Of a stretch of 64,000 nt of DNA, positions 997-49,272 are shown in pieces. This DNA comes from a virus. Lineage: Duplodnaviria > Caudoviricetes. Below the pieces are notes generated by a model. The model ran no database searches. It saw only the letters and a program-made list of their open reading frames with translations, and was not told where the DNA came from. The stretch lies in IMG/VR virus record IMGVR_UViG_3300050645_000186, positions 1 through 64,000 of that record; one strand, given 5' to 3'. Position numbers and translations under genes: made by a program. Each line of letters begins with the position of its first letter. Position 1 is the stretch's first letter.

Positions 997-1022
997 TTAT
1001 TGGAACCTCCGTCTAATATTTG

Positions 1023-1096
1023 CGAAGTAAACTTCGTGAATTATCATTGACTCCATGTCGTGGCGTTTGTATAATAGCATACGAAGTGGACTTCGT
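1023..1096 (+). promoter_or_regulatory. Rightward sigma70 promoter flanked by two palindromic operators
   Basis: TTGACT (1047-1052), 17-nt spacer, TATAAT (1070-1075); palindromes CGAAGT-AA-ACTTCG (1023-1036) and ACGAAGT-GG-ACTTCGT (1081-1096). Confidence 0.85.
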
Positions 1097-1138
1097 CAAC
1101 AAAACTTATGCAGGATAAAATGTCGGGGGTAAAGGGTT

Positions 1139-3610: not shown

Positions 3611-3895
3611 ATGAGACTTTTTGAAACCATCCGCATGCTTTCAGGCAATCCGACGCTCCGGGAGAATGTCGCGGATGCTTCGAACGCCGCGCTCAAAGCT
3701 GTAACCTGCGCGCTTTCCATTATGGAGGAAGCCTGCCTGACCATCGCATCTGAGCTGAAACGCATACGCGACGGCTTGCCCCGTTTCCGTGAAGATTCGC
3801 CGGAGGAGGCGCTCGCGCTTGCGTTTGAAAAGCTGGCTTGTGCGAAAAAAACCATTCAGTGCCTTGTCGAAGGGGGCGGTTTCCATGTCGAGTGA
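3611..3895 (+). CDS. Hypothetical protein (absent from element 2)
   Basis: AGGAGG RBS; overlaps the start of the next gene. Confidence 0.6.
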   Translation: MRLFETIRMLSGNPTLRENVADASNAALKAVTCALSIMEEACLTIASELKRIRDGLPRFREDSPEEALALAFEKLACAKKTIQCLVEGGGFHVE

Positions 3896-4301
3896 AAGGC
3901 TGTTCGAACTGGCCGACCGGCTGCGTGAGCTGCGCGAGGCCAAGGTGTATGCCGAGCAGGCGCTCAAAGAGGTCAACGACCAGCTCGACGAGGTGGACTA
4001 CCGCCTATCCGAGCTTATGGCCGAGACCGAAACGCAGAACTTCACGCGCGGCGGCACCATGTTCTACCTGATTTCCAAGACCCGCGCGTCTGCTACGGCC
4101 GACCGTAAGGATGAGCTGTTCGCAGCGCTGCGCGGCGAGGGCTACGGCGAGCTTGTCACGGAAACGGTCAACGCCAATTCCCTGTCCGCGTTCGTAAAGG
4201 AGCAGATCACCGAGAACGGCGACGCGCTGCCCGATTGGCTCCGGGGCTTGGTGAATGTATTTGAAAAAACCACCGTCGGCGTCCGAAAGGCCGTCAAATA
4301 A
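3885..4301 (+). CDS. Conserved phage replication-module protein (gp33-like)
   Basis: Coiled-coil N-terminus and ETVNANSLSAFVKE; homolog at 48795-49205. Confidence 0.75.
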   Translation: MSSERLFELADRLRELREAKVYAEQALKEVNDQLDEVDYRLSELMAETETQNFTRGGTMFYLISKTRASATADRKDELFAALRGEGYGELVTETVNANSLSAFVKEQITENGDALPDWLRGLVNVFEKTTVGVRKAVK

Positions 4302-4328
4302 AGAATTTTGAAGATGAGGGATTGAAGA

Positions 4329-4952
4329 ATGGCTACAAAAACAAAAGCAACGAAGCGTCTAGAGGCGCAGGTCAACAACGATGCGGAGGCCGCTATCCTT
4401 ATGCCGTATGTCGTGGAATGCGAGATCACCGGCACGTCGCCCATCCTTTTTCACCGTTGGAGCTGTGAGGATGTGGAGGCGAAGGCCACCGCTGCAAAGA
4501 ACAGCAAAGCCAAGAAAACCGACAACATTGAGGCATATCTGTATCGCAACGATAAGCGCGAGATTTGTATTCCCACCGAGTATTTCCGACAGAGCATCAT
4601 CACAGCAGCGAAATGCCGCCAAGACCCCCGCAGCCCGCGTAAAAGTGCCTGTGACCTGTTCAAGGCCAGCGTGCTTTCGATCAGCGATTTGGCTACGACC
4701 GGCTGCGGCGAACCGGACTATATCGACAAGCGCCGCGTTTGCGTGCAGCGTGCGGGGATCACCCGTCTGCGCCCGGCACTCGATGCGGGATGGAAGGTCA
4801 GGGTGCTTTTGCAGGTGCAAACGCCGGAGTACATTGCGCCGAGCTTCCTGCTTGACGTGATGGCGGATGCCGGGAGGCTGGTCGGCGTCGGGGATTTCCG
4901 CCCAACATACGGGCGTTTTCAGGTCAGCAATTTTTCGCTGCTGGCTGACTAA
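4329..4952 (+). CDS. Orphan RAMP/Cas7-like RNA-binding protein (candidate Vipr-like effector)
   Basis: RAMP-like motif order: ITGTSPILFH first strand, ICIPTEYFRQSI helix, RRVCVQRAGITRLRP hairpin, and C-terminal Gly-rich loop AGRLVGVGDFRPTYGRF; adjacent to GGY-NN arrays. The fold is inferred, not computed. Confidence 0.7.
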   Translation: MATKTKATKRLEAQVNNDAEAAILMPYVVECEITGTSPILFHRWSCEDVEAKATAAKNSKAKKTDNIEAYLYRNDKREICIPTEYFRQSIITAAKCRQDPRSPRKSACDLFKASVLSISDLATTGCGEPDYIDKRRVCVQRAGITRLRPALDAGWKVRVLLQVQTPEYIAPSFLLDVMADAGRLVGVGDFRPTYGRFQVSNFSLLAD

Positions 4953-4962
4953 TACACCAATA

Positions 4963-5054
4963 CCGGGCATGGTACGGCTCGGCCAGGCAAGGTTGGGTCA
5001 GGCAGGGTAAGCCCATCGTTTCTGGGGCAGTTTGTCGTCAAAACTGCCACCCCA
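4963..5054 (+). ncRNA. Putative guide RNA unit 1 (array 1 plus 3' hairpin)
   Basis: Non-coding array followed by CGTTT and hairpin GGCAGTTT (5026-5033), loop GTCGTCA, AAACTGCC (5041-5048). Confidence 0.6.
4966..5010 (+). repeat. GGY-NN pentamer array 1 (9 units)
   Basis: GGC-AT GGT-AC GGC-TC GGC-CA GGC-AA GGT-TG GGT-CA GGC-AG GGT-AA. Confidence 0.95.
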
Positions 5055-5058
5055 TTCC

Positions 5059-5143
5059 CCGGGCGTGGCAGGGCAAGGCAAGGTCTGGCTCGGTCAGGCA
5101 AGGCAGGGCAAGGCGTTTAGGCGGTTATTACGATAAAACCGCC
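5059..5143 (+). ncRNA. Putative guide RNA unit 2 (array 2 plus 3' hairpin)
   Basis: Array ending in CGTTT, then hairpin GGCGGTT (5120-5126) / AACCGCC (5137-5143). Confidence 0.6.
5062..5116 (+). repeat. GGY-NN pentamer array 2 (11 units)
   Basis: GGC-GT GGC-AG GGC-AA GGC-AA GGT-CT GGC-TC GGT-CA GGC-AA GGC-AG GGC-AA GGC-GT. Confidence 0.95.
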
Positions 5144-5170
5144 ATCTATTCAAAAACGGAGGAAAACACA

Positions 5171-5923
5171 ATGTCTAAAAAAGATACGGATATTCAGGTG
5201 GTCGGCAACGCATTTGCGCATCTGTCTGAATTCAATATGAGCGCGGCCATGGCCGAGGAGCTTGACGGCCTCAACGTCAATTTTGAGCGCATCAAGATAC
5301 CGGCAGGCGGCAGCACCGTGTTCGAGCTGCCCGGCGAGGAAACCGACGAACCGGATATGACCAAGGAGTTCAGCGGCGTCATTCTGTGGCACCATCCGCT
5401 CTTCGCCTTCTATACGGACAAATACACCGGGGCGAACAACCCGCCCGTCTGCGGCAGCTTCGATGGCATGACCGGCGAGGGCATGCCCGGCGGTTCCTGC
5501 GCCAAATGCCCTTACAACCAGTTTGGCTCCGGCGAAAACGGCTCCAAGGCGTGCAAAAACCGCCGCCGCATCTATGTGCTGCGCGAGGGCGAGATTTTCC
5601 CGCTGCTGCTGTCCCTGCCCACCGGCAGCCTTAAGGAGTTCACGCGCTACATCAAGCGCCTGCTCAGCAAAGGCAAGAAATCCAACGCAATCGTTACCCG
5701 TTTTTCGCTCAAAAAGGCGATGAGCGCAAGCGGCATCGCGTATTCGCAGGCGCAATTCAGCATCGACCGCGATCTGAATGTCGAGGAGTACGCGCTGATC
5801 GCTACGCTGGCTGAGCAGGTCAAGGCACACAGCAGGCGCGTCGCCTTCGAGGTGGACGAGCCTGTGGAGAATATCCCGGCGATCGACCCGGAAACCGGCG
5901 AGATCATCGAACCTTTACGGTAA
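5171..5923 (+). CDS. Conserved phage replication protein (putative ssDNA-binding/annealing)
   Basis: Sits before the DNA polymerase; CxxC (CAKC) and acidic tail (IDPETGEIIEPL); homolog at 49273-50022. Confidence 0.6.
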   Translation: MSKKDTDIQVVGNAFAHLSEFNMSAAMAEELDGLNVNFERIKIPAGGSTVFELPGEETDEPDMTKEFSGVILWHHPLFAFYTDKYTGANNPPVCGSFDGMTGEGMPGGSCAKCPYNQFGSGENGSKACKNRRRIYVLREGEIFPLLLSLPTGSLKEFTRYIKRLLSKGKKSNAIVTRFSLKKAMSASGIAYSQAQFSIDRDLNVEEYALIATLAEQVKAHSRRVAFEVDEPVENIPAIDPETGEIIEPLR

Positions 5924-35506: not shown

Positions 35507-36841
35507 ATGGCAAGAAATATACGGATAATAGGGCCTTTATCGCCCGCAGCGCCCAAGAAAAAGCGCGTGGCCGCATATGCGCGGGTATCCAGCGGCAAGG
35601 ACGCAATGCTCCACTCGCTCTCGGCGCAGGTCAGCTACTACAGCGCCTATATCCAACGTCAGCCGGGCTGGGAATACGCCGGTGTGTACGCGGATGAGGC
35701 GCTCACCGGCACCAAGGATGACCGCCCGGAGTTCCAGCGGCTGCTTGCCGACTGCCGGGCCGGGCAAATCGATATGGTAGTTACAAAGTCCATATCAAGG
35801 CTGGCAAGGAACACGGTAACTATGCTGGAGGCGGTGCGCGAACTCAGGGCGCTGAACATCGATGTGTTCTTCGAAAAAGAGAATATTCACAGTCTGAGCG
35901 GGGATGGTGAGCTGATGCTTACCATCCTCGCTTCTTTTGCGCAGGAGGAAAGCCGGTCGGTCAGCGAAAACTGCAAATGGCGCATCCGCAGTCGTTTTCG
36001 GGACGGCGAGCTGGTGGGCCTGAGTTATATGTACGGCTATCGCATATGCAAAGGCGTGATCAAGGTTGATTTAGTCGAAGCGGCGGTCGTGAGGCGGGTT
36101 TTCCGGGATTGCATCGAAGGCATCGGCGTGGAGACGATCGCAAAGCGGCTCAACGAGCTGGGCATATCGCAGCGGCGCGGTGGCGAGTGGTCAGGGGCGC
36201 GCGTGCTGCACCTGCTGCACAATGAAAAATATACCGGCAACGCCCTGTTGCAAAAAAGCTACGTCGCCGACCACCTGACCAAGAAGGAACGCCCCAATAA
36301 AGGCGTACTCCCCATGTACTTTGCGGAGGGTACGCATCCCGCCATCATCGACCGGGGCACATTCGATCGTGCGCAACGGCGGCTTGAAGCCAACAGGAAA
36401 AGCAACAACATTTCCAAAGATGCGCCTGCCAGATACCCCTTTTCCGGCATCATCCAATGTGATAATTGCGGGCAGAAATTCAAGCGCGTCGTGTGCCATG
36501 GCAGGCCCTACTGGCAATGCACGACGTATCTTCGTAACGGCAAGGCCGCCTGCCACACCAAACAGATACCCGAGCCTATTCTGCTGTCGCTTGCGGCACA
36601 GGCGCTTGGGCTTTCCGCTTTTGATGAGGCGGCTTTCAACAGCCAAATCCAAGAGATGCGCATACCCGCGCACGATCGGGTGATTTTTGTGTTTCACGAC
36701 GGCCATACGGCGGAGTGCGTATGGCAGGACAATTCGCGCCGGGATAGCTGGTGTGAGGAGAAAAAGCAGCAGGCGCGCCAGCGTCAGCTTGAATATATGG
36801 AAAAGGAGAACAGCCAATGCAACCAAACGCCGCAAGAGTAA
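35507..36841 (+). CDS. Large serine recombinase 1
   Basis: AAYARVSS catalytic Ser; TKSISRLARN; LAQEES-like FAQEES; Zn ribbon CDNC...C...C. Confidence 0.93.
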   Translation: MARNIRIIGPLSPAAPKKKRVAAYARVSSGKDAMLHSLSAQVSYYSAYIQRQPGWEYAGVYADEALTGTKDDRPEFQRLLADCRAGQIDMVVTKSISRLARNTVTMLEAVRELRALNIDVFFEKENIHSLSGDGELMLTILASFAQEESRSVSENCKWRIRSRFRDGELVGLSYMYGYRICKGVIKVDLVEAAVVRRVFRDCIEGIGVETIAKRLNELGISQRRGGEWSGARVLHLLHNEKYTGNALLQKSYVADHLTKKERPNKGVLPMYFAEGTHPAIIDRGTFDRAQRRLEANRKSNNISKDAPARYPFSGIIQCDNCGQKFKRVVCHGRPYWQCTTYLRNGKAACHTKQIPEPILLSLAAQALGLSAFDEAAFNSQIQEMRIPAHDRVIFVFHDGHTAECVWQDNSRRDSWCEEKKQQARQRQLEYMEKENSQCNQTPQE

Positions 36842-37034
36842 CCGTAATCCCTGCGTATACGCGGCCTTCTAATACAGGGCCTGTGGGCCTTGCCTCAAAA
36901 AAGCGCGTGGCGGCATATGCCCGTGTATCCACCGATAGCGAGGAGCAGCTTACCAGTTATGAGGCGCAGGTAGATTACTACACCCGCTATATCAAGGAAA
37001 AGGACGAGTGGTCATTCGTTGAAGTCTATACGGA
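36817..37034 (+). pseudogene. Large serine recombinase 2, truncated N-terminal fragment
   Basis: AAYARVSTDSEEQLTSYEAQ...FVEVYT then unrelated sequence where DEGISG is expected. Confidence 0.88.
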
Positions 37035-37125
37035 AATAATAGTTCCCTATATGATACGGCTTCGTTTCCGGGATTTCGTTAAAGAATGTAAAAACCTTTT
37101 GATTTACAGACTTTCTCACACCGAG

Positions 37126-37279
37126 GGGTGTGCAAAGGTCCTATTTTTTTGCCCGCTATTTTCGACAGACTATTTTGAACGTGTGCAACTGAGTGTTCAC
37201 GATGGTAATTTTGCACACCCTTACAACGATGAAGCCGTCCCGTAACGATTTACAGGACAGTTCGTTATGAGGGTGTGCA
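37126..37279. repeat. Cluster of inverted repeats
   Basis: GGGTGTGCAAA (37126-37136) / TTTGCACACCC (37210-37220); 16/18 inverted repeat 37212-37229 / 37262-37279 with inner GTCC..GGAC stem. Confidence 0.8.
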
Positions 37280-37309
37280 TATTGTGCTCTATAGAATAGA
37301 GTTGTTTTG

Positions 37310-37663
37310 CTATTCGCAAAGAGAATAAATTTTCGGCATACCGCCAGAATCTATCACCTTGCCAATTTCAATCAGCCCAAAAACAATCAACGCTCTAACA
37401 TAAATGTAAGGAGTATCCGTATCGGGGTATAACACTTTCACATACGGTGCAAGATCATCAAACGAGCCGACACTGTAATTGCTACCATTGCTGTCGGAGA
37501 CAGCATATGTGGCAGGGTCAAATTTCCCATAGAAATTTTTAACTGCATATGCAAAAGCAAATTTTGCAGCAGATGTTCCGTGGTCAAATTTCCCCGTTGC
37601 GACCAGTTTATCAGCCACCTCGTTAGCGGCTTTTGATAAGCGGAAATTTGTTATATCGTTCAT
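37310..37663 (-). CDS. Small protein after the ATPase (DndE-like position and size)
   Basis: Last gene of the minus-strand operon; GGAGG RBS; family guessed from context only. Confidence 0.5.
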   Translation of the reverse strand: MNDITNFRLSKAANEVADKLVATGKFDHGTSAAKFAFAYAVKNFYGKFDPATYAVSDSNGSNYSVGSFDDLAPYVKVLYPDTDTPYIYVRALIVFGLIEIGKVIDSGGMPKIYSLCE

Positions 37664-37678
37664 ATCTGTCACCTCCAG

Positions 37679-39673
37679 TTATTGCAGTTCTATTGCTGTA
37701 TGGAAAGAACCATACTTTCTCAGGCGATATTCTTTTTTGAGTGTGCTTCCTAAAACCTGTCTGGCGGTCTGCCCATCAATCTCATCAGTGTACGCCAAAA
37801 GAATGATCTGATCGGACATTAATGGCAGTGCCTTTGTTATGTTTTTCTTATGGGTTGGATCGAGACGTCCAAAAGGAGAATCCATTATAATAGGTCCGCT
37901 TAAGGGGGCGTTTTTGTGTAAAGCGCCAATCAACGACAGTGCCACAATATGCTCAAACCCGGCAGAACGGAATGGTATTATTTCACCGGAACGATGTTGT
38001 ATGGAGAGGCCATAGTTGTCATTAATTTTTAACGCTGTATAGTCAGGATCGCTGCTAATGTTGCAGAAAAGCTCTGTAGCATCACGTTCAACTTCCGCTT
38101 TTAGTTTGTCACGATATGCAGCGATGCCGTCGTTAAATAACTGATGGAGTGCTGCACAGATTTCAACCTTTTTTACTGCAAGATTTAAATCCGCATCAGA
38201 AGTACCTGCTTTCCGAACTTTTTCTTCAAGGCTTGCTAAAGCAATGTCGGCTTCTTTTATTTTATCCTTAGTTGCTTGAATACCTTCCTTTAGATTTTCA
38301 ATCTTTGAATAGCACTTTGCCAAGTTTTGTGCATTCTCTTTTGCGACAGCGGTGAGGTCACTTATATTTCCGTAGCGGCTAATCTCATCTCGCAAATCTT
38401 TGAACTGACCTTTTGCGTCATCAATCTGCACTAAGAGATCAGCCAGCTGATCCTCATAAACCTTGAGAACTTGGGCGTCTGTAGCACTCTGCATACTTTC
38501 CAAAGATGCCTGTCGGATTTGAAGAGTTTTCATGCGCCCGATTTCTTCGGTGGACAGTCCGCCAAATTCTCCTGGCTCTTCTTCAAGTCGCTTTTTAAGT
38601 GCAATTACGTGAGCTTCATCTACATCCTGGTTACAGCATTCACAATGATGCGTTTCTACGATACGTTGAATATATGTCATAAGTCGAGCAACAGACTCAT
38701 GCGTATTGTGCTTTTGCTGGAGAGTATATAGTTCAGACTTAACCTGAGATAGAATTTCAGAGGTTTTCTTGCCAATCACATATCTCCAGACATCTTTTGT
38801 CGCAACAACAATTGACTGTAAAAGGCCATCACGTGTAGCTTCTTTTGCAGCAATATCGCTCTCTAAATGCTCCATGTTCTGGATTAATGCTCTGAGATGC
38901 TCGTTCTGTTTTCCTTCGTCCTCAAGTTTTGCCCTGAGATTTTGCGCCTCCTCATATGCTGCTTGAAGCCGCACCAGTTCTTTTGTTTGCTCATCCTTCT
39001 TTGCCGTTTCCGATTCAATCTGTGCGGCATACTTTTCTGTCTGCTTATTTGCCTGAGCTGCTTTTGTCTGTTCCTTGCGGTATTCGTCAAGGACAAAGGC
39101 AGTATCATTAGCGGCGCTTGTCAAAATGGGGACTCCTAAAATTGATTCAATAGATTTCTTGATTTTTTCGCCGGCAGAAGTTTCATCTTTCACGAGTTCC
39201 TCGTATTCCTGAAGCAATTCACCATCGAATAGGAAAAATCGAGAAACATCCTCTGGCATTATTAATGCCAGTTCATGTTCTTTATTTGGAGCAAAATGCC
39301 CATCAACCTTAAGAAAAACATCCTGAACATAGTCATCGTTCTTGGAAGGAACTGTTACACCAGAACGAACACTATATTGACGAGTAAGTTCATATTTTTT
39401 TCCATCGTGGAGCATTTTCAATACAACCTTAAAATCGTATTTACCCGCTTTCATTCCTTCTCGGTTCACCAATTTTAGAATATCTTCTACCGTCTCATGG
39501 CGGTATTGGAATCTGCCAAACAAGGCATAACGGAAGAGGTTCAGAAGCGTGGTTTTCCCATGTCCATTGTCTCCCCAAATAAGGGTAACACCATCCCCAT
39601 CACCGAAGTCAATTGTCTGCTCACCTTCATAAGGGCCAAAATTATTGATGGTTATACTCGTAAACTTCAACAT
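37679..39673 (-). CDS. SMC/Rad50-like ABC ATPase (DndD-like)
   Basis: Walker A GDNGHGKTT; FFLFDGE; long coiled coil with CECC hinge; signature SAG; Walker B IMDSPFGRLD. Confidence 0.88.
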   Translation of the reverse strand: MLKFTSITINNFGPYEGEQTIDFGDGDGVTLIWGDNGHGKTTLLNLFRYALFGRFQYRHETVEDILKLVNREGMKAGKYDFKVVLKMLHDGKKYELTRQYSVRSGVTVPSKNDDYVQDVFLKVDGHFAPNKEHELALIMPEDVSRFFLFDGELLQEYEELVKDETSAGEKIKKSIESILGVPILTSAANDTAFVLDEYRKEQTKAAQANKQTEKYAAQIESETAKKDEQTKELVRLQAAYEEAQNLRAKLEDEGKQNEHLRALIQNMEHLESDIAAKEATRDGLLQSIVVATKDVWRYVIGKKTSEILSQVKSELYTLQQKHNTHESVARLMTYIQRIVETHHCECCNQDVDEAHVIALKKRLEEEPGEFGGLSTEEIGRMKTLQIRQASLESMQSATDAQVLKVYEDQLADLLVQIDDAKGQFKDLRDEISRYGNISDLTAVAKENAQNLAKCYSKIENLKEGIQATKDKIKEADIALASLEEKVRKAGTSDADLNLAVKKVEICAALHQLFNDGIAAYRDKLKAEVERDATELFCNISSDPDYTALKINDNYGLSIQHRSGEIIPFRSAGFEHIVALSLIGALHKNAPLSGPIIMDSPFGRLDPTHKKNITKALPLMSDQIILLAYTDEIDGQTARQVLGSTLKKEYRLRKYGSFHTAIELQ

Positions 39674-39691
39674 AACAAACAACCCTCCTTA

Positions 39692-39883
39692 TTAAATGGT
39701 TACCGTCTTCAGAAAATCATCTATGACTTTCTGCGTATCATGTCTTGCCTTTGTCCTATCATCCTGAGACGAAAATTCCGCATTTACGATATCTTGAATC
39801 AATGATGCAGGTATTTTAGGCTGCTGCTTGGCTCTGATTTTTTCCAATACGGAAATCAGTTCATTGATTTCGATGTTAGTCAT
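39692..39883 (-). CDS. Small helical protein
   Basis: Between helicase and ATPase; GAGGAGG RBS. Confidence 0.65.
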   Translation of the reverse strand: MTNIEINELISVLEKIRAKQQPKIPASLIQDIVNAEFSSQDDRTKARHDTQKVIDDFLKTVTI

Positions 39884-42008
39884 TGTCATCATCCTCCTCA
39901 ATTCCGGTGTTTTGTAAACTGTTGTAGTCGATCTGGTAATCAACGGCTATATTTTTCAAATCGGTAACACAGGCAGGGTTTTCTGCGCCTAAACCAAACT
40001 GAATCGCTCTTGATAATTCACCGATAATAATCGACATAGACTTTGGCGTTTCTTCAGATTCGACCACGGGAACCGTAATCGCATCATAAAGATGTGCGAA
40101 GAGCTTACCTGGTGAATTTCTTAGAATCCTACCTCTGCGCTGAATGAATTCTCTTGGATTCTGTGAAGACGCAAGAATCAAAGCGTGTGTGGTAGAAGGA
40201 ATATCAATACCTTCATCCAAGCACTTAATCGAAACCAAGACGCCGCCGTTCTTAGAAAAGTATCGGAGCGTCTCGTCTCGATCACCTTCCATATCTGCAT
40301 AGTATTCAAATGCATCAAAACCAGCGTCAATCGCACCGTTCAATACACTCTTTAACTGTGTGATATTGTCGCAATAGATAATCCAACTCTGGCCTACCAC
40401 ATATTCTCTAAGCAAGAGATTGATGGCCAAGGGAACTTTACCAGATGCATTCTTGACAATACGCGCTCTGTTAATCAACAATTGCTTCAAGCGTGTGTTG
40501 GAGGTAATACTCGTATCTGAATTTCCATTAGCTTTCATACGAGCCATAAGCTGACTTATCTGTTTTGTAATATCGTTCCATTCTTCCTGCTCATTTTGTG
40601 TGAGGGTAATGGTGAGTGGGTTATAAAAATACTTTGTTAAAACGCCGCTTTTTATTGCGTCATCCAATGTATAGGGTGGTGGTACGAGACCGCCAAAATA
40701 ATCAAAGAGCGCAGACGTTCCTTCGGGATCTCCATATCTGCGTGGCGTGGCAGATAAGCCCAACCTTGCACCTGCATCTATATTTAAGGCGTTACGTCTC
40801 CGTGGGCTTCCCAATCTATGTACTTCGTCAGCCACGACAAACAGATGATTACCATGCGATACATTTTTTACAAAATCATCTGAGCAGGCTGTATCCATAG
40901 TTGCAAGAATAATGCGATGAGTTGAACCTCCATCACTTGTCCAAGATGCCAAAGTTCCGGGCTTTTTCCACTCGTTATTGTTATCCCCGCAAAGAAGATA
41001 GTATATTTTATCTTCGAGCAAGGTTTCCCTCAATTCTCGATCCCATTGTTTTAATAGGTCTCTTGATGGGACTAAAATCAGTACGACTTCATTTCTCTTA
41101 AAAGCATCATGGATTGCACACATGGCAGTGAAAGTTTTTCCGCTGCCTGTAGCATGTTCAAAAATGCCTCGGCGATTATTCTTTACCCATGCTTCAAGGG
41201 CATTTACTTGATGCGGACGGGGTGTGCGGCTGCCAACATGATTACTTGGTTTCCACTTTTTTGCCTTGTTTTCTTCTACATGGATTTCATCCAGTAATTC
41301 GTGCCATTTTACTCCCTCCGCTTTAGTTCGTAATATTTCTTTAGAGGCACTCGGGAATTGATACACAATAATTCCTGAAACGGATTCTGACCATAGCTTT
41401 TCAAAAAATACTGATGCGTCATCAACTCGTTCGGCATCGCGGCTATCGAGCCAATCCGGAAATACATCAATAGACTCCATGTTTCCATCGGAAGATAGTC
41501 CTCTGTACGTTTCATTCATTGAACCACGGAAGCCCACTTTATTACCATCGGAATCCGTGAAAATACCGACTTTGTCGTGAAACAGTCTCCTTGCATTTGG
41601 TGATTCTTTGCCAGTTGGAACAGCGATTTTTACATCAATAATGCCTTTTGAAATCATATATGCAAGTAGCTTTGCTGGAGCAGATAAAAAAGGATCATCA
41701 AATAAGGTCTGCACTTCTTTTGCAAGCGACTCCGCGAGCAATTCATCATTTTTCGCAGAGTAGCCATTAGCTAACGCAGTGGCATCTTCATCAGATACAT
41801 ACGGTGAACATATCAAGCGCATCTTACCATTGTTATCGATAAATTCCCGTAAAGCATCCCAGGCAATAATGTAGATTGTGCTTCCAAAATACCCGGAGAT
41901 TCTATCGTAACGGCTTGAGTGCCTCATGCATGGAAGATAAAACATATCAGCTATGTCATGCTCGGCCTTATTATAAGAAGTAAGATATGTTTGTTCCTTA
42001 AGACTCAT
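39876..42008 (-). CDS. PLD-like nuclease fused to SF2 helicase (Dnd-associated restriction-enzyme-like)
   Basis: FHDKVG...GSMNET HxK motif; ATGSGKT; DEVH; SATP; QRRGRILR. Confidence 0.85.
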   Translation of the reverse strand: MSLKEQTYLTSYNKAEHDIADMFYLPCMRHSSRYDRISGYFGSTIYIIAWDALREFIDNNGKMRLICSPYVSDEDATALANGYSAKNDELLAESLAKEVQTLFDDPFLSAPAKLLAYMISKGIIDVKIAVPTGKESPNARRLFHDKVGIFTDSDGNKVGFRGSMNETYRGLSSDGNMESIDVFPDWLDSRDAERVDDASVFFEKLWSESVSGIIVYQFPSASKEILRTKAEGVKWHELLDEIHVEENKAKKWKPSNHVGSRTPRPHQVNALEAWVKNNRRGIFEHATGSGKTFTAMCAIHDAFKRNEVVLILVPSRDLLKQWDRELRETLLEDKIYYLLCGDNNNEWKKPGTLASWTSDGGSTHRIILATMDTACSDDFVKNVSHGNHLFVVADEVHRLGSPRRRNALNIDAGARLGLSATPRRYGDPEGTSALFDYFGGLVPPPYTLDDAIKSGVLTKYFYNPLTITLTQNEQEEWNDITKQISQLMARMKANGNSDTSITSNTRLKQLLINRARIVKNASGKVPLAINLLLREYVVGQSWIIYCDNITQLKSVLNGAIDAGFDAFEYYADMEGDRDETLRYFSKNGGVLVSIKCLDEGIDIPSTTHALILASSQNPREFIQRRGRILRNSPGKLFAHLYDAITVPVVESEETPKSMSIIIGELSRAIQFGLGAENPACVTDLKNIAVDYQIDYNSLQNTGIEEDDDND

Positions 42009-42531
42009 ATGTACCTCCAAGTAGTTCTTCGTGCATGATATCCATACGACGAATTATGGCATCGTACAAAAACTGAGGGCGAGCACATACAATACGCTCA
42101 TTATTTTTTCTCGTTGTTTCAGATACCTTTGTGCAAAGAGCTTCAACAATCACATCAGCCTTAACTTGCATATTGCAACTATATGCAAAATCAAGATGTT
42201 TTTCAGCATCCCAAAAAGCAAAAACAATATCTTCGCCGTCCCGTACTAATGCACCAATAATAGGCATGCGCCCATCAGAATAGTCAAGATGTCCACGTTC
42301 TCCATGCTTTTGACCAGGAAGGATTATTTGAATCTTATATTCGCCTAAAGCACGACCGCCAGGAGGATTTGTGCAGTTCCATAAGTAAACACGCAGACGT
42401 AAGCTTCTTGGACATAAATCCACAAGAAGAGGAAATGATGTCGTGTCACTATGCCAAGTGACATGATCATCGAGTCCCTCAATGAAAATAGTATTCAATG
42501 CTTTTTTACTAAGTCTCTTTTTCTTTGCCAT
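41998..42531 (-). CDS. Unknown protein, possibly methylase-associated X1-like domain
   Basis: RVYLWNCTNPPGGRALGEYKIQ segment resembles that family from memory; lies between the MTase and helicase genes. Confidence 0.5.
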   Translation of the reverse strand: MAKKKRLSKKALNTIFIEGLDDHVTWHSDTTSFPLLVDLCPRSLRLRVYLWNCTNPPGGRALGEYKIQIILPGQKHGERGHLDYSDGRMPIIGALVRDGEDIVFAFWDAEKHLDFAYSCNMQVKADVIVEALCTKVSETTRKNNERIVCARPQFLYDAIIRRMDIMHEELLGGTYES

Positions 42532-43378
42532 TATCATGTCCTCCTGCGATAGAGCGAAGAAGAGAAGCCGCATGTTCTACATATTCTTCTACAACATCAA
42601 ACCCAACAAAGCGCCGCCCGAGAGACAAAGCTGCATATCCTGTGGTACCACTTCCCATCCAAGGATCAACCACTAAGTCGTTTTCTGCTGTTGTAGCTTT
42701 TATATATTTTTGTGGCAGATACAACGGCTGCGTGGCTGGATGGTCATCAATTCGAGCCGATACCCCTCCGCTTATAATATTCTTTGGTAATGCGCCCAAT
42801 GGGTTTGGGGCTATTCGTTTATTTTTGCGAACGTATGTGTTGCCGTTTGAACGGGGCTTGTATTCGTAGGTTTCGTATGTTTGAACACTATGGGATTCAT
42901 AAGGCCTTCGTATTGCGTCAATATTTATTGTCCATTTAGAGGATTTTGAAAACCATAGATTCTGTTCATAAGCATCTTGGCAGGCTACCCGAAGTCCCGT
43001 GGGTACAGGATTCTCTTTTACCCAAATCTCGATATCAACACAATGCAATCCCCACGTTTCTTCCATTTCTATTGCGAGTTTTTCTATTACCAATGAACGT
43101 TTGGACGAACATTTGGATGTTGATTTCTCCCTGTTCGCTTTAACATTTATCACAATAAAGCCATCATCGCGTAGTTTTAAACAAGCTGAATCCAAAAATG
43201 GTGACATTTTTCTTATATATTCAGACGATCGCCATACTCCATATTCACGTTCTGCATTGGGATATGGAGGTGAACCATAAATGAGTTTTATGGATTTATC
43301 TGGAAGCAGAAGCATTCCTTTTGCGCCATCCATTCGTCGGACTGCGTAGTTGCTCTTATTTATCTCCTGTATTATCAT
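42509..43378 (-). CDS. Beta-class DNA methyltransferase (SPPY)
   Basis: GSPPY, HPATQP, VDPWMGSGTT. Confidence 0.92.
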   Translation of the reverse strand: MIIQEINKSNYAVRRMDGAKGMLLLPDKSIKLIYGSPPYPNAEREYGVWRSSEYIRKMSPFLDSACLKLRDDGFIVINVKANREKSTSKCSSKRSLVIEKLAIEMEETWGLHCVDIEIWVKENPVPTGLRVACQDAYEQNLWFSKSSKWTINIDAIRRPYESHSVQTYETYEYKPRSNGNTYVRKNKRIAPNPLGALPKNIISGGVSARIDDHPATQPLYLPQKYIKATTAENDLVVDPWMGSGTTGYAALSLGRRFVGFDVVEEYVEHAASLLRSIAGGHDNGKEKET

Positions 43379-44282
43379 CGGCAACCTCTTCTTGTAAATC
43401 CTTTTCATATTGCAATCTCAGAGCGGCAAGACGGCAATAATCAGAATTAGCATCAATGCCAATCCATATGCGGTTAAGTCGTTGTGCCACAGCAGCAGTG
43501 GTGCCAGAGCCTGAAAATGGATCGAGTACAACATCTCCTGCAGAACTTCCAGCAAGAATAAAAAATTCTGCCAGTTTTTCGGGGAAACGTGCAGGGTGGC
43601 CAATTCCCTCTTCTTTACATAACTTCATAAAATAATCATTACTGCTTGTGTTTGCAATTTCAATTACTGTTCCAGGGTCTGAACCACCGTTATCGGTCCA
43701 CACCTTCTCACAATCGAAATTATGTGTGCTGGGACGTGTATTGTAGTTTCGATCTCCCTTTCCTTTGCCCTGAAGATATTTTTTCATATCTTTACTGTAC
43801 GGCTTTCTGATTGGATCCATATTAAATTCCCATGTGTCACCCTTTGCCAACCAAAAGCAATATTCGTGTGATTTTTTAGTGCGACCATAACCTCCCCTAG
43901 AATATACATTTGGAGGAGTCGCAGGATTATACCATATATAGTCGCGTACAAGATGAAACCCAATTTCTTTACATAATTTCAATAAAAGCTCAAATACATA
44001 TAGGTGCTGAAAGTTATCTACAACTTTATCGCTGATATTAAGAACGAAACTGCCATCGTCCTTAAGGATCCGATGCATTTCCCTTGCTTTTGGAATAAAC
44101 CAATCAACATATTCATCAGGTGGAATCGTGCCATCTACATCGCCATAATCACGTTTATCTGCATAGGGAGGAGATGTTAGTATAAGATCAATACTCGAAT
44201 CTGGTATAGTTTGTAAAACAGTTTCACAGTCACCACATATAAATTTATCACGAAACGTGTTTAGCGTTTTTTTCTTTTTCAT
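43356..44282 (-). CDS. Beta-class DNA methyltransferase (SPPY)
   Basis: TSPPY, HPARFP, LDPFSGSGTT. Confidence 0.93.
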   Translation of the reverse strand: MKKKKTLNTFRDKFICGDCETVLQTIPDSSIDLILTSPPYADKRDYGDVDGTIPPDEYVDWFIPKAREMHRILKDDGSFVLNISDKVVDNFQHLYVFELLLKLCKEIGFHLVRDYIWYNPATPPNVYSRGGYGRTKKSHEYCFWLAKGDTWEFNMDPIRKPYSKDMKKYLQGKGKGDRNYNTRPSTHNFDCEKVWTDNGGSDPGTVIEIANTSSNDYFMKLCKEEGIGHPARFPEKLAEFFILAGSSAGDVVLDPFSGSGTTAAVAQRLNRIWIGIDANSDYCRLAALRLQYEKDLQEEVADDNTGDK

Positions 44283-44284
44283 TG

Positions 44285-44527
44285 TTACACCTTTTCATTT
44301 TCGTTATTAAGTTGCTCTTTGTCATCCAATGAAATTTCCATTATATCCGAAATATCACACTTAAGCGCATCGCATATTTTCAAAAGCACATCGGTCGTTA
44401 GATTTTCATTTTTTGATAGCTTTGCCATAGAAGCAGTACTAATACCTGTCGCTTCTCGCAAGTCTTTTCTTTTCATATCTTTATCAATTAAAAGTTTCCA
44501 AAGCTTTTTATAACTGACAGTAGACAT
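44285..44527 (-). CDS. XRE/Cro-like HTH regulator heading the defence operon
   Basis: VSYKKLWKLLIDKDM...VLLKICDALKCDISDIME. Confidence 0.9.
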   Translation of the reverse strand: MSTVSYKKLWKLLIDKDMKRKDLREATGISTASMAKLSKNENLTTDVLLKICDALKCDISDIMEISLDDKEQLNNENEKV

Positions 44528-44716
44528 TTTCTACCCCTTCCAATTTATTATCGCATAGCTTTAAGAGCATATCGCAAAATAATATTTTGCGTTCACATAT
44601 AATTATACGGATTTTTATCGAATAAGTCAATAATTTTTAGAAACATCTCGGGGGTTATCTATAATATTTTATTTTAGAAGCTCTCTTGACATTGACCCAA
44701 AAAAGATGTACACTAT

Positions 44717-44736
44717 TGTTAGCTGTTTAGCTAACA
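44717..44736. promoter_or_regulatory. Palindromic operator 1 of element 2
   Basis: TGTTAGCT-GTTT-AGCTAACA; near-identical copy at 45931-45950. Confidence 0.8.
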
Positions 44737-44768
44737 GATAACAGATATTTAAAGTTGGAGGTGTCACA

Positions 44769-45143
44769 ATGGAAATTGGAAATAAATCCTTTGGTGAATT
44801 ACTTACTTTTTTCAGAGAAAAGAAAGATGTAACATTAAGGGAACTGGCCAGAGGGATTGGCGTTTCCGCACCATTCTTAAGTGATGTTGAAAAAGGAAGG
44901 CGCGCTGCCTTGACAGCTGAGCGCATAGAAAAGGTTGTTGTTGTTCTGCATTTAGATGAAGAGGAAGCAACAGCCCTGTATAATGCAGCCGGGAAACAGA
45001 AAAACTCAATTCCTCCAGATTTACCGGAATATATTATGGAACATGAGTACGTCAGCGCAGCTCTTCGCACAGCCCGCGATCTTGATGCAAGCGAGGAAGA
45101 ATGGCAGCGATTTGTGGATGATCTGAGGAGGCGAAAAGGATAA
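44769..45143 (+). CDS. XRE-family repressor of element 2
   Basis: LRELARGIGVSAPFLSDVEKGRR HTH. Confidence 0.9.
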   Translation: MEIGNKSFGELLTFFREKKDVTLRELARGIGVSAPFLSDVEKGRRAALTAERIEKVVVVLHLDEEEATALYNAAGKQKNSIPPDLPEYIMEHEYVSAALRTARDLDASEEEWQRFVDDLRRRKG

Positions 45144-45146
45144 GGC

Positions 45147-45887
45147 ATGTTTAAACCAGAATTGAGGTATTCTAATACCGGAATTCCTATAATATCAAAC
45201 GCAGAGATTGATACAATAGGAGAACGAATGATAGTAGATTTTGATAGTTCTTCTTTATTTAATCCGCACGCAATTGATATTGAAAGATTTGTAGACAAAT
45301 ACCTAAAAATGCCGATTGAATTTATGTACTTATCTCACTGTGGTGTTTATCTTGGCACGACAGTATTTCAGACGACAAATCGTCTTCCCATTTACATTCC
45401 AGAAGAAAATCGAGCAGATTATGCTCATGTAGAGGCTGGCACAATTGTAATTGATGGCAGTCTTGATAGTGAAAATCAAGAGCATCGTCTGCGTTTCACA
45501 CTCGGTCATGAAGGCGGACATGGCATTTTTCACCCATCCTATTTTCTTAATACAATAGGTTCCAGTGAGAGAGATAACACTGGAATATATGTGAGATGTC
45601 GTTCGGATTTTAAGGCATCTTGGCAAAATCTCAATGGCTTTCATAATATGTCTGATGCCGAACGAGTTGAACAACAGGCTAATCGCTTTTCTGCTGCTGT
45701 TTTAATGCCTAAAAGTGCTGTTAAAATTCTACTTGCAGGAAAGCCGTATGACGGGACGACGGAGTGGATTATTTCTTCGATGACCCAGATTAGCGATACT
45801 TTTAACGTTTCTAAAGAAGCAGCTTTTTATCGTCTAAAGGGACTTGAAATTATAGATGATTATAAAAAAATACCAATTGTAATGTAA
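45147..45887 (+). CDS. ImmA/IrrE-family metallopeptidase
   Basis: RFTLGHEGGH; EQQANRFSAAVLMP. Confidence 0.9.
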   Translation: MFKPELRYSNTGIPIISNAEIDTIGERMIVDFDSSSLFNPHAIDIERFVDKYLKMPIEFMYLSHCGVYLGTTVFQTTNRLPIYIPEENRADYAHVEAGTIVIDGSLDSENQEHRLRFTLGHEGGHGIFHPSYFLNTIGSSERDNTGIYVRCRSDFKASWQNLNGFHNMSDAERVEQQANRFSAAVLMPKSAVKILLAGKPYDGTTEWIISSMTQISDTFNVSKEAAFYRLKGLEIIDDYKKIPIVM

Positions 45888-45930
45888 AAAATATATGGCG
45901 AGAAGGCGCTATATATTTTTTTACCCAATA

Positions 45931-45950
45931 TGTTAGCTGTTAAGCTAACA
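45931..45950. promoter_or_regulatory. Palindromic operator 2 of element 2
   Basis: TGTTAGCT-GTTA-AGCTAACA upstream of the first early gene. Confidence 0.8.
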
Positions 45951-45971
45951 GCTACTAAGAAAGGAGATACT

Positions 45972-46139
45972 ATGAATAAAAAAACAAAGTCTCTTAGATG
46001 CCCTTGCTGTGGCAAGAGGGCCTGCGACATTTCGGATATTCCCAAGGAAAAAATTTATATTGAAATGAAATGCCCTCAGTGTCACAACATTGTAAGAATA
46101 TGGTGTGACAAAGCATCAGTAAAAACCATAAGTTTATAA
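45972..46139 (+). CDS. Small Cys-rich zinc-ribbon protein
   Basis: RCPCC and KCPQC; homolog of 1139-1336. Confidence 0.75.
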   Translation: MNKKTKSLRCPCCGKRACDISDIPKEKIYIEMKCPQCHNIVRIWCDKASVKTISL

Positions 46140-46309
46140 ATTATTGTCTATTCATACCGAGCAACGGAGTCGATTGCGAACTACCAAATGGCCGGATGAT
46201 TTTGAAACGTAAGGTTTCATAGTCATCTGGCCATTTACGTTTCAAAATCGGCTCTTTGCGTTTGTTCCTGACTCCTCTCGGTCACGCCGAAGGCGAGAAA
46301 GGAACAAAA

Positions 46310-46927
46310 ATGTCGAGAAACAACGATTCAAAGAAACGCAAGAGCAACTACAACCGCAACCGTACCTGCTACCTGTCCTCGGACGGAAAATATTACTGTT
46401 ACGAGGCTTGGGATCCAGACGCTAAACGCATGGTTACGCAAAAACTGGAGGTCGGCAAAGACCTGTCACTGGAACTGACGCTTATCCTCGATTCCTCTGA
46501 CCATGACATGGATTTGAATGACCGTTACCAGGACGAACTGTGCGATCCCTTGTTTGAGGCAAAGGCCAACAGCTACATATCGGATCCAAATAACGAGGAT
46601 GCCGTAGATCCCTGGGATGCGATTGCCGACAAGAGCGGCAGCCCGGAAGACGCACTGTTCGCCGGGCCGGAGCCGGAGAATCCTCAGGCAGAACAAGTGC
46701 GCCGCATCATTGATGAGAACTGTACCGAAGCACAGCAGGATTTCTTTTTTGAGCATTTCGGCAAGGGTACGCAGCTTGAGGAGATGCGCCAGGCTGAAGC
46801 CGAGCAGACGGGCAAGCTGCCGTCCTCTGCGGCAATGACCAACCGCAAAAACAAAATTATTGATAAGGTCGCCAAATCCTTCGGTGTTGAGCGTGTGAAA
46901 CGCCATGCTTACCCGAAAAAGGACTGA
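46310..46927 (+). CDS. Sigma-factor-like regulator (putative)
   Basis: Occupies the slot of the sigma-70 region 4 gene of element 1; C-terminal helical HTH-like region. Confidence 0.55.
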   Translation: MSRNNDSKKRKSNYNRNRTCYLSSDGKYYCYEAWDPDAKRMVTQKLEVGKDLSLELTLILDSSDHDMDLNDRYQDELCDPLFEAKANSYISDPNNEDAVDPWDAIADKSGSPEDALFAGPEPENPQAEQVRRIIDENCTEAQQDFFFEHFGKGTQLEEMRQAEAEQTGKLPSSAAMTNRKNKIIDKVAKSFGVERVKRHAYPKKD

Positions 46928-47069
46928 GCCGTGAACGGCGGCAGATACGGCGGTCGGAGTCCTCCCCGGCCGCTCCCCTCTTGGGGGATTGAATTTCTCG
47001 GCAGTGAGTGAGGAAGGAAATACATTCATCCTCCTCAGCAAGGCCAATCAGGGACAGGAGGACCAATAC

Positions 47070-47306
47070 ATGAAAATGCAACACAAAGTACGAATCAATA
47101 TTGCCGACAGGAACGGCAATAAAAAGGAAGTTTTGCAGAGCGAACATATCAGCCTGCCGAAAAGGCTGCTCACCTTTCTTTTTGGGGAATTTTGCGAAAT
47201 CCTCGTGCTGAAGCCGGGTAAAACCGTGCAGGGCATTGAGATCAAAGAATTAGGCTCCACGCAAAAGGAAGTATGCACGGATAAGCGGGGTGAGCGGAAT
47301 GCCTGA
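47070..47306 (+). CDS. Conserved small phage protein
   Basis: Homolog of 1966-2160. Confidence 0.7.
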   Translation: MKMQHKVRINIADRNGNKKEVLQSEHISLPKRLLTFLFGEFCEILVLKPGKTVQGIEIKELGSTQKEVCTDKRGERNA

Positions 47307-48794: not shown

Positions 48795-49205
48795 ATGGAG
48801 AACACAAAAATCTTTGAAATGGCTGACAGACTCAAGTCTCTGCAGGAACAGAAAAAAGGCCTCGAAGCGCAGACCAAGGCTCTGGGCGCGGAGATCGCCG
48901 AACTGGACGAGCAGCTTTCCGATGCCATGACAGAAGCCGAACTTGACCGTTTCTCCCGTAACGGCAGCACGTTCTATTTGAAAAGCAGATTGTTCGCGTC
49001 TCCGGTATCCGGCCGCAGGGATGAGATGCTGCAGGCTCTGAAAGAGAATGGCTACGGCAGTCTGGTCGTGGAAACGGTCAACGCAAACACACTCGCATCC
49101 TTCATCAAGGAACAGCGGGAAGCCACGGGCGAAGAAGTTCCGGCATGGCTCGGCGATACCGTCAGCACTTACGAAAAAGTGTCGGTCGGAATCCGCAAAG
49201 CGTAA
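48795..49205 (+). CDS. Conserved phage protein (gp33-like)
   Basis: Homolog of 3885-4301. Confidence 0.75.
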   Translation: MENTKIFEMADRLKSLQEQKKGLEAQTKALGAEIAELDEQLSDAMTEAELDRFSRNGSTFYLKSRLFASPVSGRRDEMLQALKENGYGSLVVETVNANTLASFIKEQREATGEEVPAWLGDTVSTYEKVSVGIRKA

Positions 49206-49272
49206 CAGCGCCGATTCAATGCGTCCACGCGTGAATCGCAACTTATTTCATTTGATCAGGAGGACATAGATT

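What the first reader, a model, noticed from the sequence alone, without database searches (positions are those of the whole stretch)
4302..5170. The RAMP/array module is an insertion absent from the sister prophage, which is a candidate competitor
In element 1 the gp33-like gene (ends 4301) and the SSB-like gene (starts 5171) are separated by the RAMP gene and arrays. In element 2 the homologous genes (ending 49205, starting 49273) are only 67 nt apart with a simple hairpin. So the module is an accessory cassette placed inside the early replication operon and expressed on induction. That fits a role against co-resident or superinfecting relatives rather than a core function. I found no convincing gapped target in element 2 by eye, but the scan was not exhaustive.
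Basis: partly seen in the sequence, partly recalled or inferred. Interest (0 to 1): 0.7.

Follow-up and report, generated by a model that had tools for sequence, protein, structure and literature searches.

The report
VIPR guide-RNA cassette inserted in prophage
A prophage carries an 0.85-kb add-on cassette, missing from about 100 related phages, that belongs to the VIPR class of phage RNA-guided DNA silencers described in 2026; its two guides do not match the neighbouring prophage, so their target is unknown.

Summary
Between the gp33-like gene (ends 4301) and the 250-aa gene (starts 5171) lie a 207-aa gene (4329-4952) and two GGY/NN pentamer tracts (4966-5010 and 5062-5116), each followed by a hairpin. 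Element 2 has a 67-nt spacer at the same place.

The module is a VIPR system (Vipr protein plus vrRNAs; bioRxiv 10.64898/2026.04.26.720920). A profile of the protein matches the solved SUSP1 Vipr chain at E 8.5e-13. It keeps the residues aligned to SUSP1's GGY contacts, and its model folds like Cas7. In 77 of 80 homologous loci the gene sits next to same-strand GGY/NN arrays.

It is a gain, not a loss in element 2. No surveyed relative has a Vipr gene or arrays in the slot, and 100 of the 105 loci could be scored. The three closest relatives (86-89% identical flank protein) show a clean 22-nt spacer. One distant phage (L108) has a homologous cassette in the same slot.

The "sister prophage is the target" idea is not supported. 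Gapped-code searches of the whole 77-kb record stay at chance, with skips of 0-3 and with wobble allowed. So do searches of relatives, IMG/VR and metagenomes.

This is a new member of a known kind. This scan has already noted VIPR loci in at least 285 other genomes.

The parts
3885..4301 (+). gp33-like gene (DUF7307), left flank of the slot. The likely true start is the ATG at 3885; the longest ORF starts at GTG 3789.
   Evidence: Pfam PF23984, E 3.3e-46. The homologue in element 2 is 136 aa. The start was read from the sequence.
4305..5157 (+). Inserted VIPR cassette, about 0.85 kb, bounded by the relatives' spacer sequence: AGA on the left and GGAGGAAAAC on the right.
   Evidence: Junction comparison with L001, L041 and L042, which have a 22-nt spacer. 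GC is 56.7% against 60-61.5% in the flanks.
4316..4320 (+). The cassette's own ribosome-binding site (GAGGG), 8 nt before the vipr ATG.
   Evidence: Read from the sequence.
4329..4952 (+). vipr gene: a 207-aa Cas7-like RAMP protein.
   Evidence: phmmer against the PDB chain 'SUSP1 Vipr protein' gives E 5e-8; the profile gives E 8.5e-13 over nearly full length. phrog_4652, E 2e-18. AF2 pLDDT 82.6; the top Foldseek hits shown are Cas7-family backbone subunits or the complexes containing them.
4966..5010 (+). vrRNA1 repeat tract, 9 GGY-NN units (NN = AT AC TC CA AA TG CA AG AA). A possible extra 5' NN = CG appears in the YNNGG register from 4962.
5024..5051 (+). vrRNA1 3' tail hairpin: a 10-bp stem with one bulge.
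   Evidence: RNA fold, z -2.4.
5062..5116 (+). vrRNA2 repeat tract, 11 GGY-NN units (NN = GT AG AA AA CT TC CA AA AG AA GT).
5112..5143 (+). vrRNA2 3' tail: GGCGTTT followed by a 7-bp hairpin (5120-5143). The tail is shared with the arrays of the closest Vipr relatives, L107 and L108.
5158..5923 (+). Right flank: the RBS GGAGG (5158-5162), left intact by the insertion, and the 250-aa gene (5171-5923, phrog_23155, function unknown).
49206..49272 (+). The empty slot in element 2: a 67-nt spacer with a small hairpin between the gp33-like gene (48795-49205) and the 249-aa gene (49273-50022).

Best explanation
Window 4305-5157 is a minimal VIPR (Viral Interference Programmable Repeat) cassette. It holds one vipr gene with its own ribosome-binding site and two guide-RNA genes (vrRNAs), and it has no accessory vap gene. 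It was gained by insertion into the 22-nt spacer between the gp33-like gene and the 250-aa gene of this prophage's early replication operon. Shown here: the protein is a Vipr homologue with a Cas7-like fold, it keeps the residues aligned to SUSP1's GGY contacts, the guides have the GGY/NN grammar plus tail hairpins, and the relatives lack the cassette. Inferred from the published SUSP1 work: the cassette is transcribed with the operon; one Vipr protomer binds each pentamer and hides GGY while presenting NN; the filament then binds double-stranded DNA that reads (x-NN)n and silences transcription of a rival mobile element. The target of these two guides is not in this record, so it is not element 2, and it was not found in any collection searched.
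For: Vipr identity: searches match the SUSP1 Vipr chain (E 8.5e-13 with the profile). In those alignments H42, R148, D189, F190 and R191 fall opposite SUSP1 H17, R138, D177, W178 and R179. The structure paper names those as GGY contacts, and all five are invariant or nearly so in 24 homologues. Fold: pLDDT 82.6; the top Foldseek hits shown are Csm3, Cas7-11 and type VII Cas7, E about 1e-5. Guide grammar: runs of 9 and 11 units against at most 5 in shuffles. Association: 77 of 80 IMG/VR loci with a homologue have adjacent arrays, 264 on the gene's strand and 4 on the other. Tail: shared with L107 and L108. Gain: no Vipr gene or arrays in the slot of any of the 105 related loci, of which 100 could be scored. 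The spacers are mostly 22-218 nt. The junctions are clean. Element 1 sits in a supported clade (SH-aLRT 96) with three Vipr-less relatives. No Vipr match was found anywhere in the two host MAGs of those relatives (with a positive control). Operon context: no promoter-like or terminator-like site on the + strand between about 1500 and 6500.
Against: No target was found, so the guide function is unproven for this locus. The 1-nt skip rule was established for type II systems and may differ in this clade. No vap gene is present, although VIPR loci typically have one. A homologous cassette sits in the same slot in the distant phage L108, so an old presence followed by several losses cannot be strictly excluded. 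Expression, processing and RNP formation were not tested.
Confidence: 0.85

Rival explanations
1. The cassette is ancestral to this phage group at the gp33|p250 slot, and element 2 and the other relatives lost it by deletion.
For: L108, a distant relative (p250 47%, Vipr 66% identical), carries a homologous cassette with the same tail type in the same slot. In the SUSP1 family, vipr-less phages did arise by deletion.
Against: No scorable relative carries it. The empty slots are short and clean, with no solo vrRNAs, unlike the SUSP1 deletions. Element 1 is nested among three Vipr-less relatives (SH-aLRT 96), so loss would have to occur in at least four or five separate clades against two gains. 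A different, unrelated 172-aa gene fills the same slot in L104, which fits a recurrent insertion site.
Confidence: 0.1
2. Element 2, or its close kin, is the real target of the two guides, read through a decoding rule or mismatch tolerance different from the published 1-nt skip rule.
For: Element 2 is co-resident. The skip rule is established only for type II systems.
Against: The best matches in the whole 77-kb record are 13/18 and 15/22 NN bases with skip 1. They are no better with skips 0, 2 or 3 or with G-U wobble allowed, and all fall within the range of guides with shuffled unit order. There is also no match in 105 related replication modules, 33 of them from element 2's clade.
Confidence: 0.05
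3. The guides are aimed at something outside phage-phage rivalry, such as a host chromosomal locus (defence gene, decoy repeat) or the prophage's own regulation.
For: No mobile-element target was found in IMG/VR or JGI metagenomes. The competition paper describes vrRNAs that direct VIPR to host repeats.
Against: No self match lies above chance. There are no matches in the two host MAGs of the nearest relatives, or in 239 genomes of that family, beyond the roughly 2 expected by chance. The true host genome was not available.
Confidence: 0.15
4. The repeats are not RNA guides. They could be DNA iterons of a replication origin bound by the 207-aa protein, or short Gly/Ala/Arg-rich peptide ORFs.
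For: The cassette lies in a replication module. Tract 1 can be read as a 13-codon ORF starting with ATG at 4968.
Against: The protein is homologous to a solved RNA-binding Vipr and keeps the residues aligned to its GGY contacts. The arrays show a 264:4 strand bias relative to the gene, which iterons would not show. The mini-ORF has no ribosome-binding site. The cassette is absent from relatives that replicate with the same module.
Confidence: 0.02

Closest known systems
VIPR systems, reference type II system of Escherichia phage SUSP1 (bioRxiv 10.64898/2026.04.26.720920; structures in 10.64898/2026.04.26.720927, PDB 36pp)
   Same: A lone Cas7-like Vipr protein of about 200 aa whose GGY-contact residues are conserved in the alignment. 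The vrRNAs have 9-16 GGY/NN pentamers followed by a structured 3' tail. The system is phage-borne and lies next to no cas genes or CRISPR array.
   Different: Sequence similarity to SUSP1 Vipr is remote (E 5e-8 for the single sequence). There is no vap gene. There are only two guides, both downstream. The tails are simple hairpins, and no pseudoknot was detected. The host is a Bacillota lineage (nearest relatives' records: an unclassified Bacillota MAG and an Oscillospiraceae MAG). The type (I-VII) could not be assigned because the paper's type tables are not held. No natural target was found.
Pseudomonas fulva prophage VIPR (same preprint)
   Same: Prophage-borne.
   Different: Here the co-resident prophage carries no match to either guide.
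vipr presence/absence polymorphism in SUSP1-like phages (bioRxiv 10.64898/2026.10.15.759431)
   Same: Close relatives differ by the presence or absence of the vipr segment at a fixed position.
   Different: In SUSP1-like phages the polymorphism is a 1,114-bp deletion that leaves solo vrRNAs. Here the relatives have an intact 22-nt spacer with no vrRNA remnants, and the pattern is best read as an insertion.
CRISPR-Cas backbone RAMPs (Csm3 / Cas7, Cas7-11, type VII Cas7)
   Same: Best structural matches (Foldseek E about 1e-5, TM about 0.5): RRM core, G-loop and thumb.
   Different: No CRISPR repeats, no spacers and no other cas genes. The guide is a pentamer code rather than a contiguous spacer.
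Phage morons / accessory cassettes in conserved operons
   Same: A self-contained gene with its own RBS, inserted between two conserved genes without disturbing them, and variable among relatives. The same slot holds an unrelated 172-aa gene in L104.
   Different: The cargo is an RNA-guided system with its own non-coding RNAs. No promoter or terminator of its own was detected.

Membership tests
VIPR system | Vipr protein: small stand-alone RAMP with RRM core, glycine-rich loop and thumb, homologous to characterised Vipr | tested here: met
   The profile matches the PDB chain 'SUSP1 Vipr protein' at E 8.5e-13 over residues 29-199. AF2 model pLDDT 82.6; the top Foldseek hits shown are Cas7-family RAMPs. 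The G-loop motif GVGDFRPxYGRF is conserved.
VIPR system | Residues that read the GGY motif (SUSP1 H17, R138, D177, W178, R179) | tested here: met
   In the HMMER alignments these fall opposite H42, R148, D189, F190 (W to F, still aromatic) and R191. All are invariant or at least 90% conserved in 24 homologues.
VIPR system | vrRNA genes: at least 4 (typically 9-16) tandem GGY/NN (YNNGG) pentamers next to vipr, on the same strand, with variable NN | tested here: met
   Tracts of 9 and 11 units lie 14 and 110 nt after the stop codon, on the same strand. No shuffle exceeded 5 units. Across homologous loci there are 264 same-strand arrays against 4 opposite.
VIPR system | Conserved structured 3' tail after the repeat tract | tested here: met
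   A hairpin follows each tract. The tail of vrRNA2 (GGCGTTT plus hairpin) recurs in L107 and twice in L108 with stem changes. No pseudoknot was sought.
VIPR system | Accessory vap gene beside vipr (typical, not universal) | tested here: not met
   The inserted segment holds only vipr. The flanking genes are present in Vipr-less relatives. No neighbour family is shared across the 80 homologous loci, and none has a homologue here.
VIPR system | Viral or proviral location, with no cas genes or CRISPR array | tested here: met
   The record is classed as a provirus. The neighbours are a SNF2 helicase, DUF7307, PolA and a primase. There are no other repeat arrays in the 77 kb.
VIPR system | Guides match natural DNA targets under the 1-nt skip rule (at least 80% of NN bases) | tested here: inconclusive
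   No match above chance in the record, 185 related loci, two host MAGs of relatives, 239 genomes of that family, IMG/VR or JGI metagenomes. Guides read backwards as a control gave as many or more hits.
VIPR system | vrRNAs are expressed, co-purify with Vipr, and repress transcription | not testable with these tools
   Needs small-RNA sequencing, pull-down and reporter assays.
CRISPR-Cas | CRISPR repeat-spacer array plus cas operon (adaptation and effector genes) | tested here: not met
   Only one RAMP gene is present. The repeats are 5-nt units with no spacers. Rfam finds nothing in 4200-5300, and PADLOC has no hit.

The most novel reading that the evidence does not exclude
On this reading the guides recognise such rivals through a decoding rule or mismatch tolerance that differs from the published 1-nt skip rule in this vap-less Bacillota clade, or they recognise variants of element 2 other than the resident copy.
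Probability: 0.05. Interest if true: 0.6.

Novelty: new member of a known kind. Interest (0 to 1): 0.3.

Why it matters
This locus is a clean natural example of a VIPR system behaving as a portable 0.85-kb cassette of protein, guides and tails, with no vap gene. It dropped into a ribosome-binding-site spacer of a phage replication operon, and near-isogenic relatives without it are available for comparison. That makes a convenient minimal system from Bacillota for asking whether Vipr alone suffices for silencing, and how such cassettes move. It also cautions against assuming that a co-resident relative is the target: the guides here match nothing in the neighbour. The class itself, its code and its role in conflicts between mobile elements are already published.

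Tried and rejected
1. Element 2 as target. I searched all 77,146 nt on both strands with skips of 0-3, with optional terminal units, and with G-U wobble. Everything stayed within the range of guides with shuffled unit order.

2. Targets in relatives. I searched 185 fetched loci (1.5 Mb) and found nothing at 80% or more.

3. Reverse test. 391 nine-unit windows from the arrays of other Vipr loci, run against this record, reached at most 16/18, near the control level.

4. Exact scans of IMG/VR. The 10-unit core of guide 2 (guide 2 without its last unit) gave 1 hit and guide 1 gave 2 hits. The guide 2 hit lies in a Mom-domain ORF of a 38% GC phage with NN on codon positions 1-2. The same patterns read backwards gave 5 and 2 hits, so these are chance.

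5. Metagenome scan. It gave 7 hits, all in contigs of 31-42% GC; four are one non-coding locus and nothing converges.

6. Family-wide genome search. It gave 2 hits at 2 mismatches in 239 genomes, against about 1.7 expected.

7. Rfam: no family in 4200-5300, hammerhead ribozymes included.

8. Type assignment (I-VII). The supplement text held does not list the types.

I could not inspect the contexts of the closest Vipr homologues (72-79% identity) or the 382-kb contig that carries the identical protein.

10. The genome search cannot draw relatives for a virus record. I worked around this through the genomes of L041 and L042.

Full report
**Observation**

- A DUF7307 "Pam3 gp33-like" gene ends at 4301.
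- A 207-aa ORF runs 4329-4952.
- A 218-nt non-coding stretch follows, and a 250-aa gene starts at 5171.
- In the second element the homologous genes end at 49205 and start at 49273. The 67 nt between them hold a small hairpin.

The non-coding stretch holds two tracts of perfect GGY-NN pentamers.
- The first has 9 units (4966-5010) and the second has 11 units (5062-5116).
- They are the only tracts with 5 or more units in the whole 77,146-nt record.
- In 100 dinucleotide-preserving shuffles the longest run was 3-5 units.
- Each tract is followed by a hairpin, at 5024-5051 and 5120-5143.

Two labels need correcting.
- The two elements are syntenic but distant: 45-63% protein identity across SNF2 helicase, gp33-like, the 250-aa protein, PolA and primase.
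- Nothing here supports calling the 250-aa protein SSB-like.

**What the module is**

The 207-aa protein has no Pfam, NCBIfam or PADLOC family. It belongs to phrog_4652. Its only match among solved structures is the chain "SUSP1 Vipr protein" (36pp):
- E 5e-8 with the single sequence;
- E 8.5e-13 over nearly the full length with a 24-sequence profile.

That match led to three 2026 preprints on VIPR (Viral Interference Programmable Repeat) systems. They describe:
- a lone Cas7-like Vipr protein;
- vrRNAs of 9-16 GGY/NN pentamers followed by a structured tail;
- recognition of double-stranded DNA that reads (x-NN)n, the "1-nt skip rule";
- use by phages against rival mobile elements.

The locus meets the testable defining features.
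- **Fold.** The AlphaFold model (pLDDT 82.6) has Cas7-family RAMPs as its top Foldseek hits: Csm3, Cas7-11 and type VII Cas7.
- **GGY contacts.** SUSP1 residues H17, R138, D177, W178 and R179 contact GGY. They align to H42, R148, D189, F190 and R191 here. All five are invariant or nearly so in 24 homologues.
- **Family size.** 5,344 proteins match at E <= 0.001, and 388 IMG/VR contigs encode a relative.
- **Association with arrays.** In 77 of the 80 fetched loci the gene sits next to GGY/NN arrays, 264 on its own strand and 4 on the other.
- **Tail.** The tail of the second vrRNA (GGCGTTT plus hairpin) recurs after the arrays of the closest IMG/VR relatives, L107 and L108.

One typical feature is missing. 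The inserted segment has no vap gene, and no neighbour family is shared across the homologous loci.

**Insertion or loss**

I fetched 105 loci that encode a relative of the 250-aa protein: 40 from viral contigs and 65 from one-genome-per-species contigs.
- None has a Vipr gene or a pentamer array between the gp33-like gene and the 250-aa gene. 100 loci could be scored, and almost all spacers are 22-218 nt.
- Two loci had longer gaps. L100 has a frameshifted 250-aa gene. L104 has an unrelated 172-aa ORF in the slot.
- The three closest relatives (L001, L041, L042; 86-89% identity) have a 22-nt spacer reading AGA-TTT-GGAGG-AAAAC. In the window the same AGA and GGAGGAAAAC bracket about 850 nt (4305-5157). 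The insert brings its own ribosome-binding site and leaves the downstream one intact.
- On a tree of the 250-aa protein, element 1 falls in a supported clade (SH-aLRT 96) with those three Vipr-less relatives. Element 2 falls in a separate clade of 27-33 rows, none with the module (quick tree, because the careful search did not finish).
- No Vipr match was found anywhere in the two host MAGs of L041 and L042. The same query found the gene in the own record as a positive control.

Gain on element 1's own branch is the parsimonious reading.

VIPR cassettes recur in this broad phage group.
- L108, a distant phage, has a homologous cassette with the same tail in the same slot. It has arrays on both sides of vipr.
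- L106 has a cassette upstream of the SNF2 gene.
- L087, L096 and L099 carry staggered arrays upstream of SNF2. In L099, the one examined, a divergent 198-aa Vipr precedes them.

This fits repeated capture of such cassettes in replication modules. It leaves a small chance of old presence followed by several losses.

**Is element 2 the target?**

I decoded the guides as follows.
- Guide 1: AT AC TC CA AA TG CA AG AA.
- Guide 2: GT AG AA AA CT TC CA AA AG AA GT.
- An optional 5' CG unit was also tried for each.

I searched both strands of the whole record with skips of 0, 1, 2 and 3.
[quoted passage not shown] Guides with shuffled unit order reach the same values.
- Only skip 3 finds a perfect match, and that is the arrays themselves.
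- Allowing G-U wobble changes nothing.

Other searches were also at chance.
- The 185 related loci hold nothing at 80% or more.
- Guides from other Vipr loci do not hit this record above control.
- Exact scans of IMG/VR gave 1 and 2 hits. The same patterns read backwards gave 5 and 2.
- The metagenome scan gave 7 non-convergent hits in AT-rich contigs.
- The two host MAGs of the nearest relatives hold no match, and 239 genomes of that family give only chance-level matches.

The proposal that the sister prophage is the target is therefore not supported. The true target is unknown. The VIPR paper likewise reports no self-contig hits for its guides.

**Mechanism**

Shown here: homology, fold, residues aligned to the GGY contacts, guide grammar, tails, co-orientation and the insertion.

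Inferred from the SUSP1 work:
- Each Vipr protomer binds one pentamer.
- The filament presents the NN dinucleotides.
- The filament binds DNA that reads (x-NN)n and blocks transcription.

Expression is also inferred. The cassette is co-directional with the operon. The consensus scan finds no promoter-like or terminator-like site on the + strand between about 1500 and 6500. The nearest strong promoter-like site is at 1047-1075. So the cassette is probably transcribed together with the replication genes. This was not tested.

**Comparison and novelty**

This is a new member of the published VIPR class. It is minimal in form: no vap gene and two guides. The type (I-VII) could not be assigned because the type tables are not among the held texts.

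In SUSP1-like phages the presence/absence pattern arises by deletion and leaves solo vrRNAs. Here the pattern is an insertion.

This scan has already noted VIPR loci many times: 374 notes in at least 285 genomes. I did not re-test that. It makes a conflict between the two elements plausible, but the guides do not reflect it.

**Limits**

The contexts of the closest homologues, and the 382-kb contig with the identical protein, could not be read.
- The collection scans were exact-match only, so targets with a few mismatches would be missed.
- The skip rule may differ in this clade.

Noticed in passing
L003-L010, L013-L015, L018-L019, L045-L054, L056-L060, L064, L067-L068, L086 (around locus position 4001): The same replication module occurs in genomes assigned to many different Bacillota families (Thermoanaerobacter, Thermotalea, Fonticella, Tepidanaerobacter, Syntrophomonas, Acetivibrio, Ureibacillus and others). 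It is 95-98% identical in DNA where aligned, and the 250-aa protein is often identical. This could be a very promiscuous element or cross-assembly contamination.
   Followed up: partly
L099:81-1372 (also L087:364-905, L096:866-1338): A divergent 198-aa Vipr (E 1.6e-6 to SUSP1 Vipr; G-loop GVGEWR...GRF) is followed by staggered GGY/NN arrays whose units share a recurring GGTATGGCAGGTAAGGTGCGGT boundary. The arrays sit upstream of the SNF2 helicase in phages of the broader element-2 group. The Vipr gene itself was examined only in L099.
   Followed up: partly
L104:3478-3996: An unrelated 172-aa ORF with no Pfam family occupies the same gp33|p250 slot in a Lachnospiraceae prophage. The slot therefore takes different cargo.
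   Followed up: partly
L108:4762-5943: A distant phage has a homologous VIPR cassette in the same slot, with much larger arrays (35 and 56 units) on both sides of vipr. The same terminal guide and tail are repeated at the end of both arrays.
   Followed up: partly
window 1020-1121 and 1402-1487: Divergent strong sigma-70-like promoters (TTGACT-17-TATAAT on +; TTGACG-17-TATTAT on -) are followed on the + strand by two tandem terminator-like hairpins, just before the long early operon. This may be a read-through or antitermination control point.
   Followed up: no
L100:2567-3425: The 250-aa gene homologue is split into overlapping 173-aa and 141-aa ORFs. This is an apparent frameshift or an assembly error.
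   Followed up: no
window 36000-48000: GC drops from about 59% to 41-45% at the start of element 2 and recovers to about 53% in its replication module.
   Followed up: no
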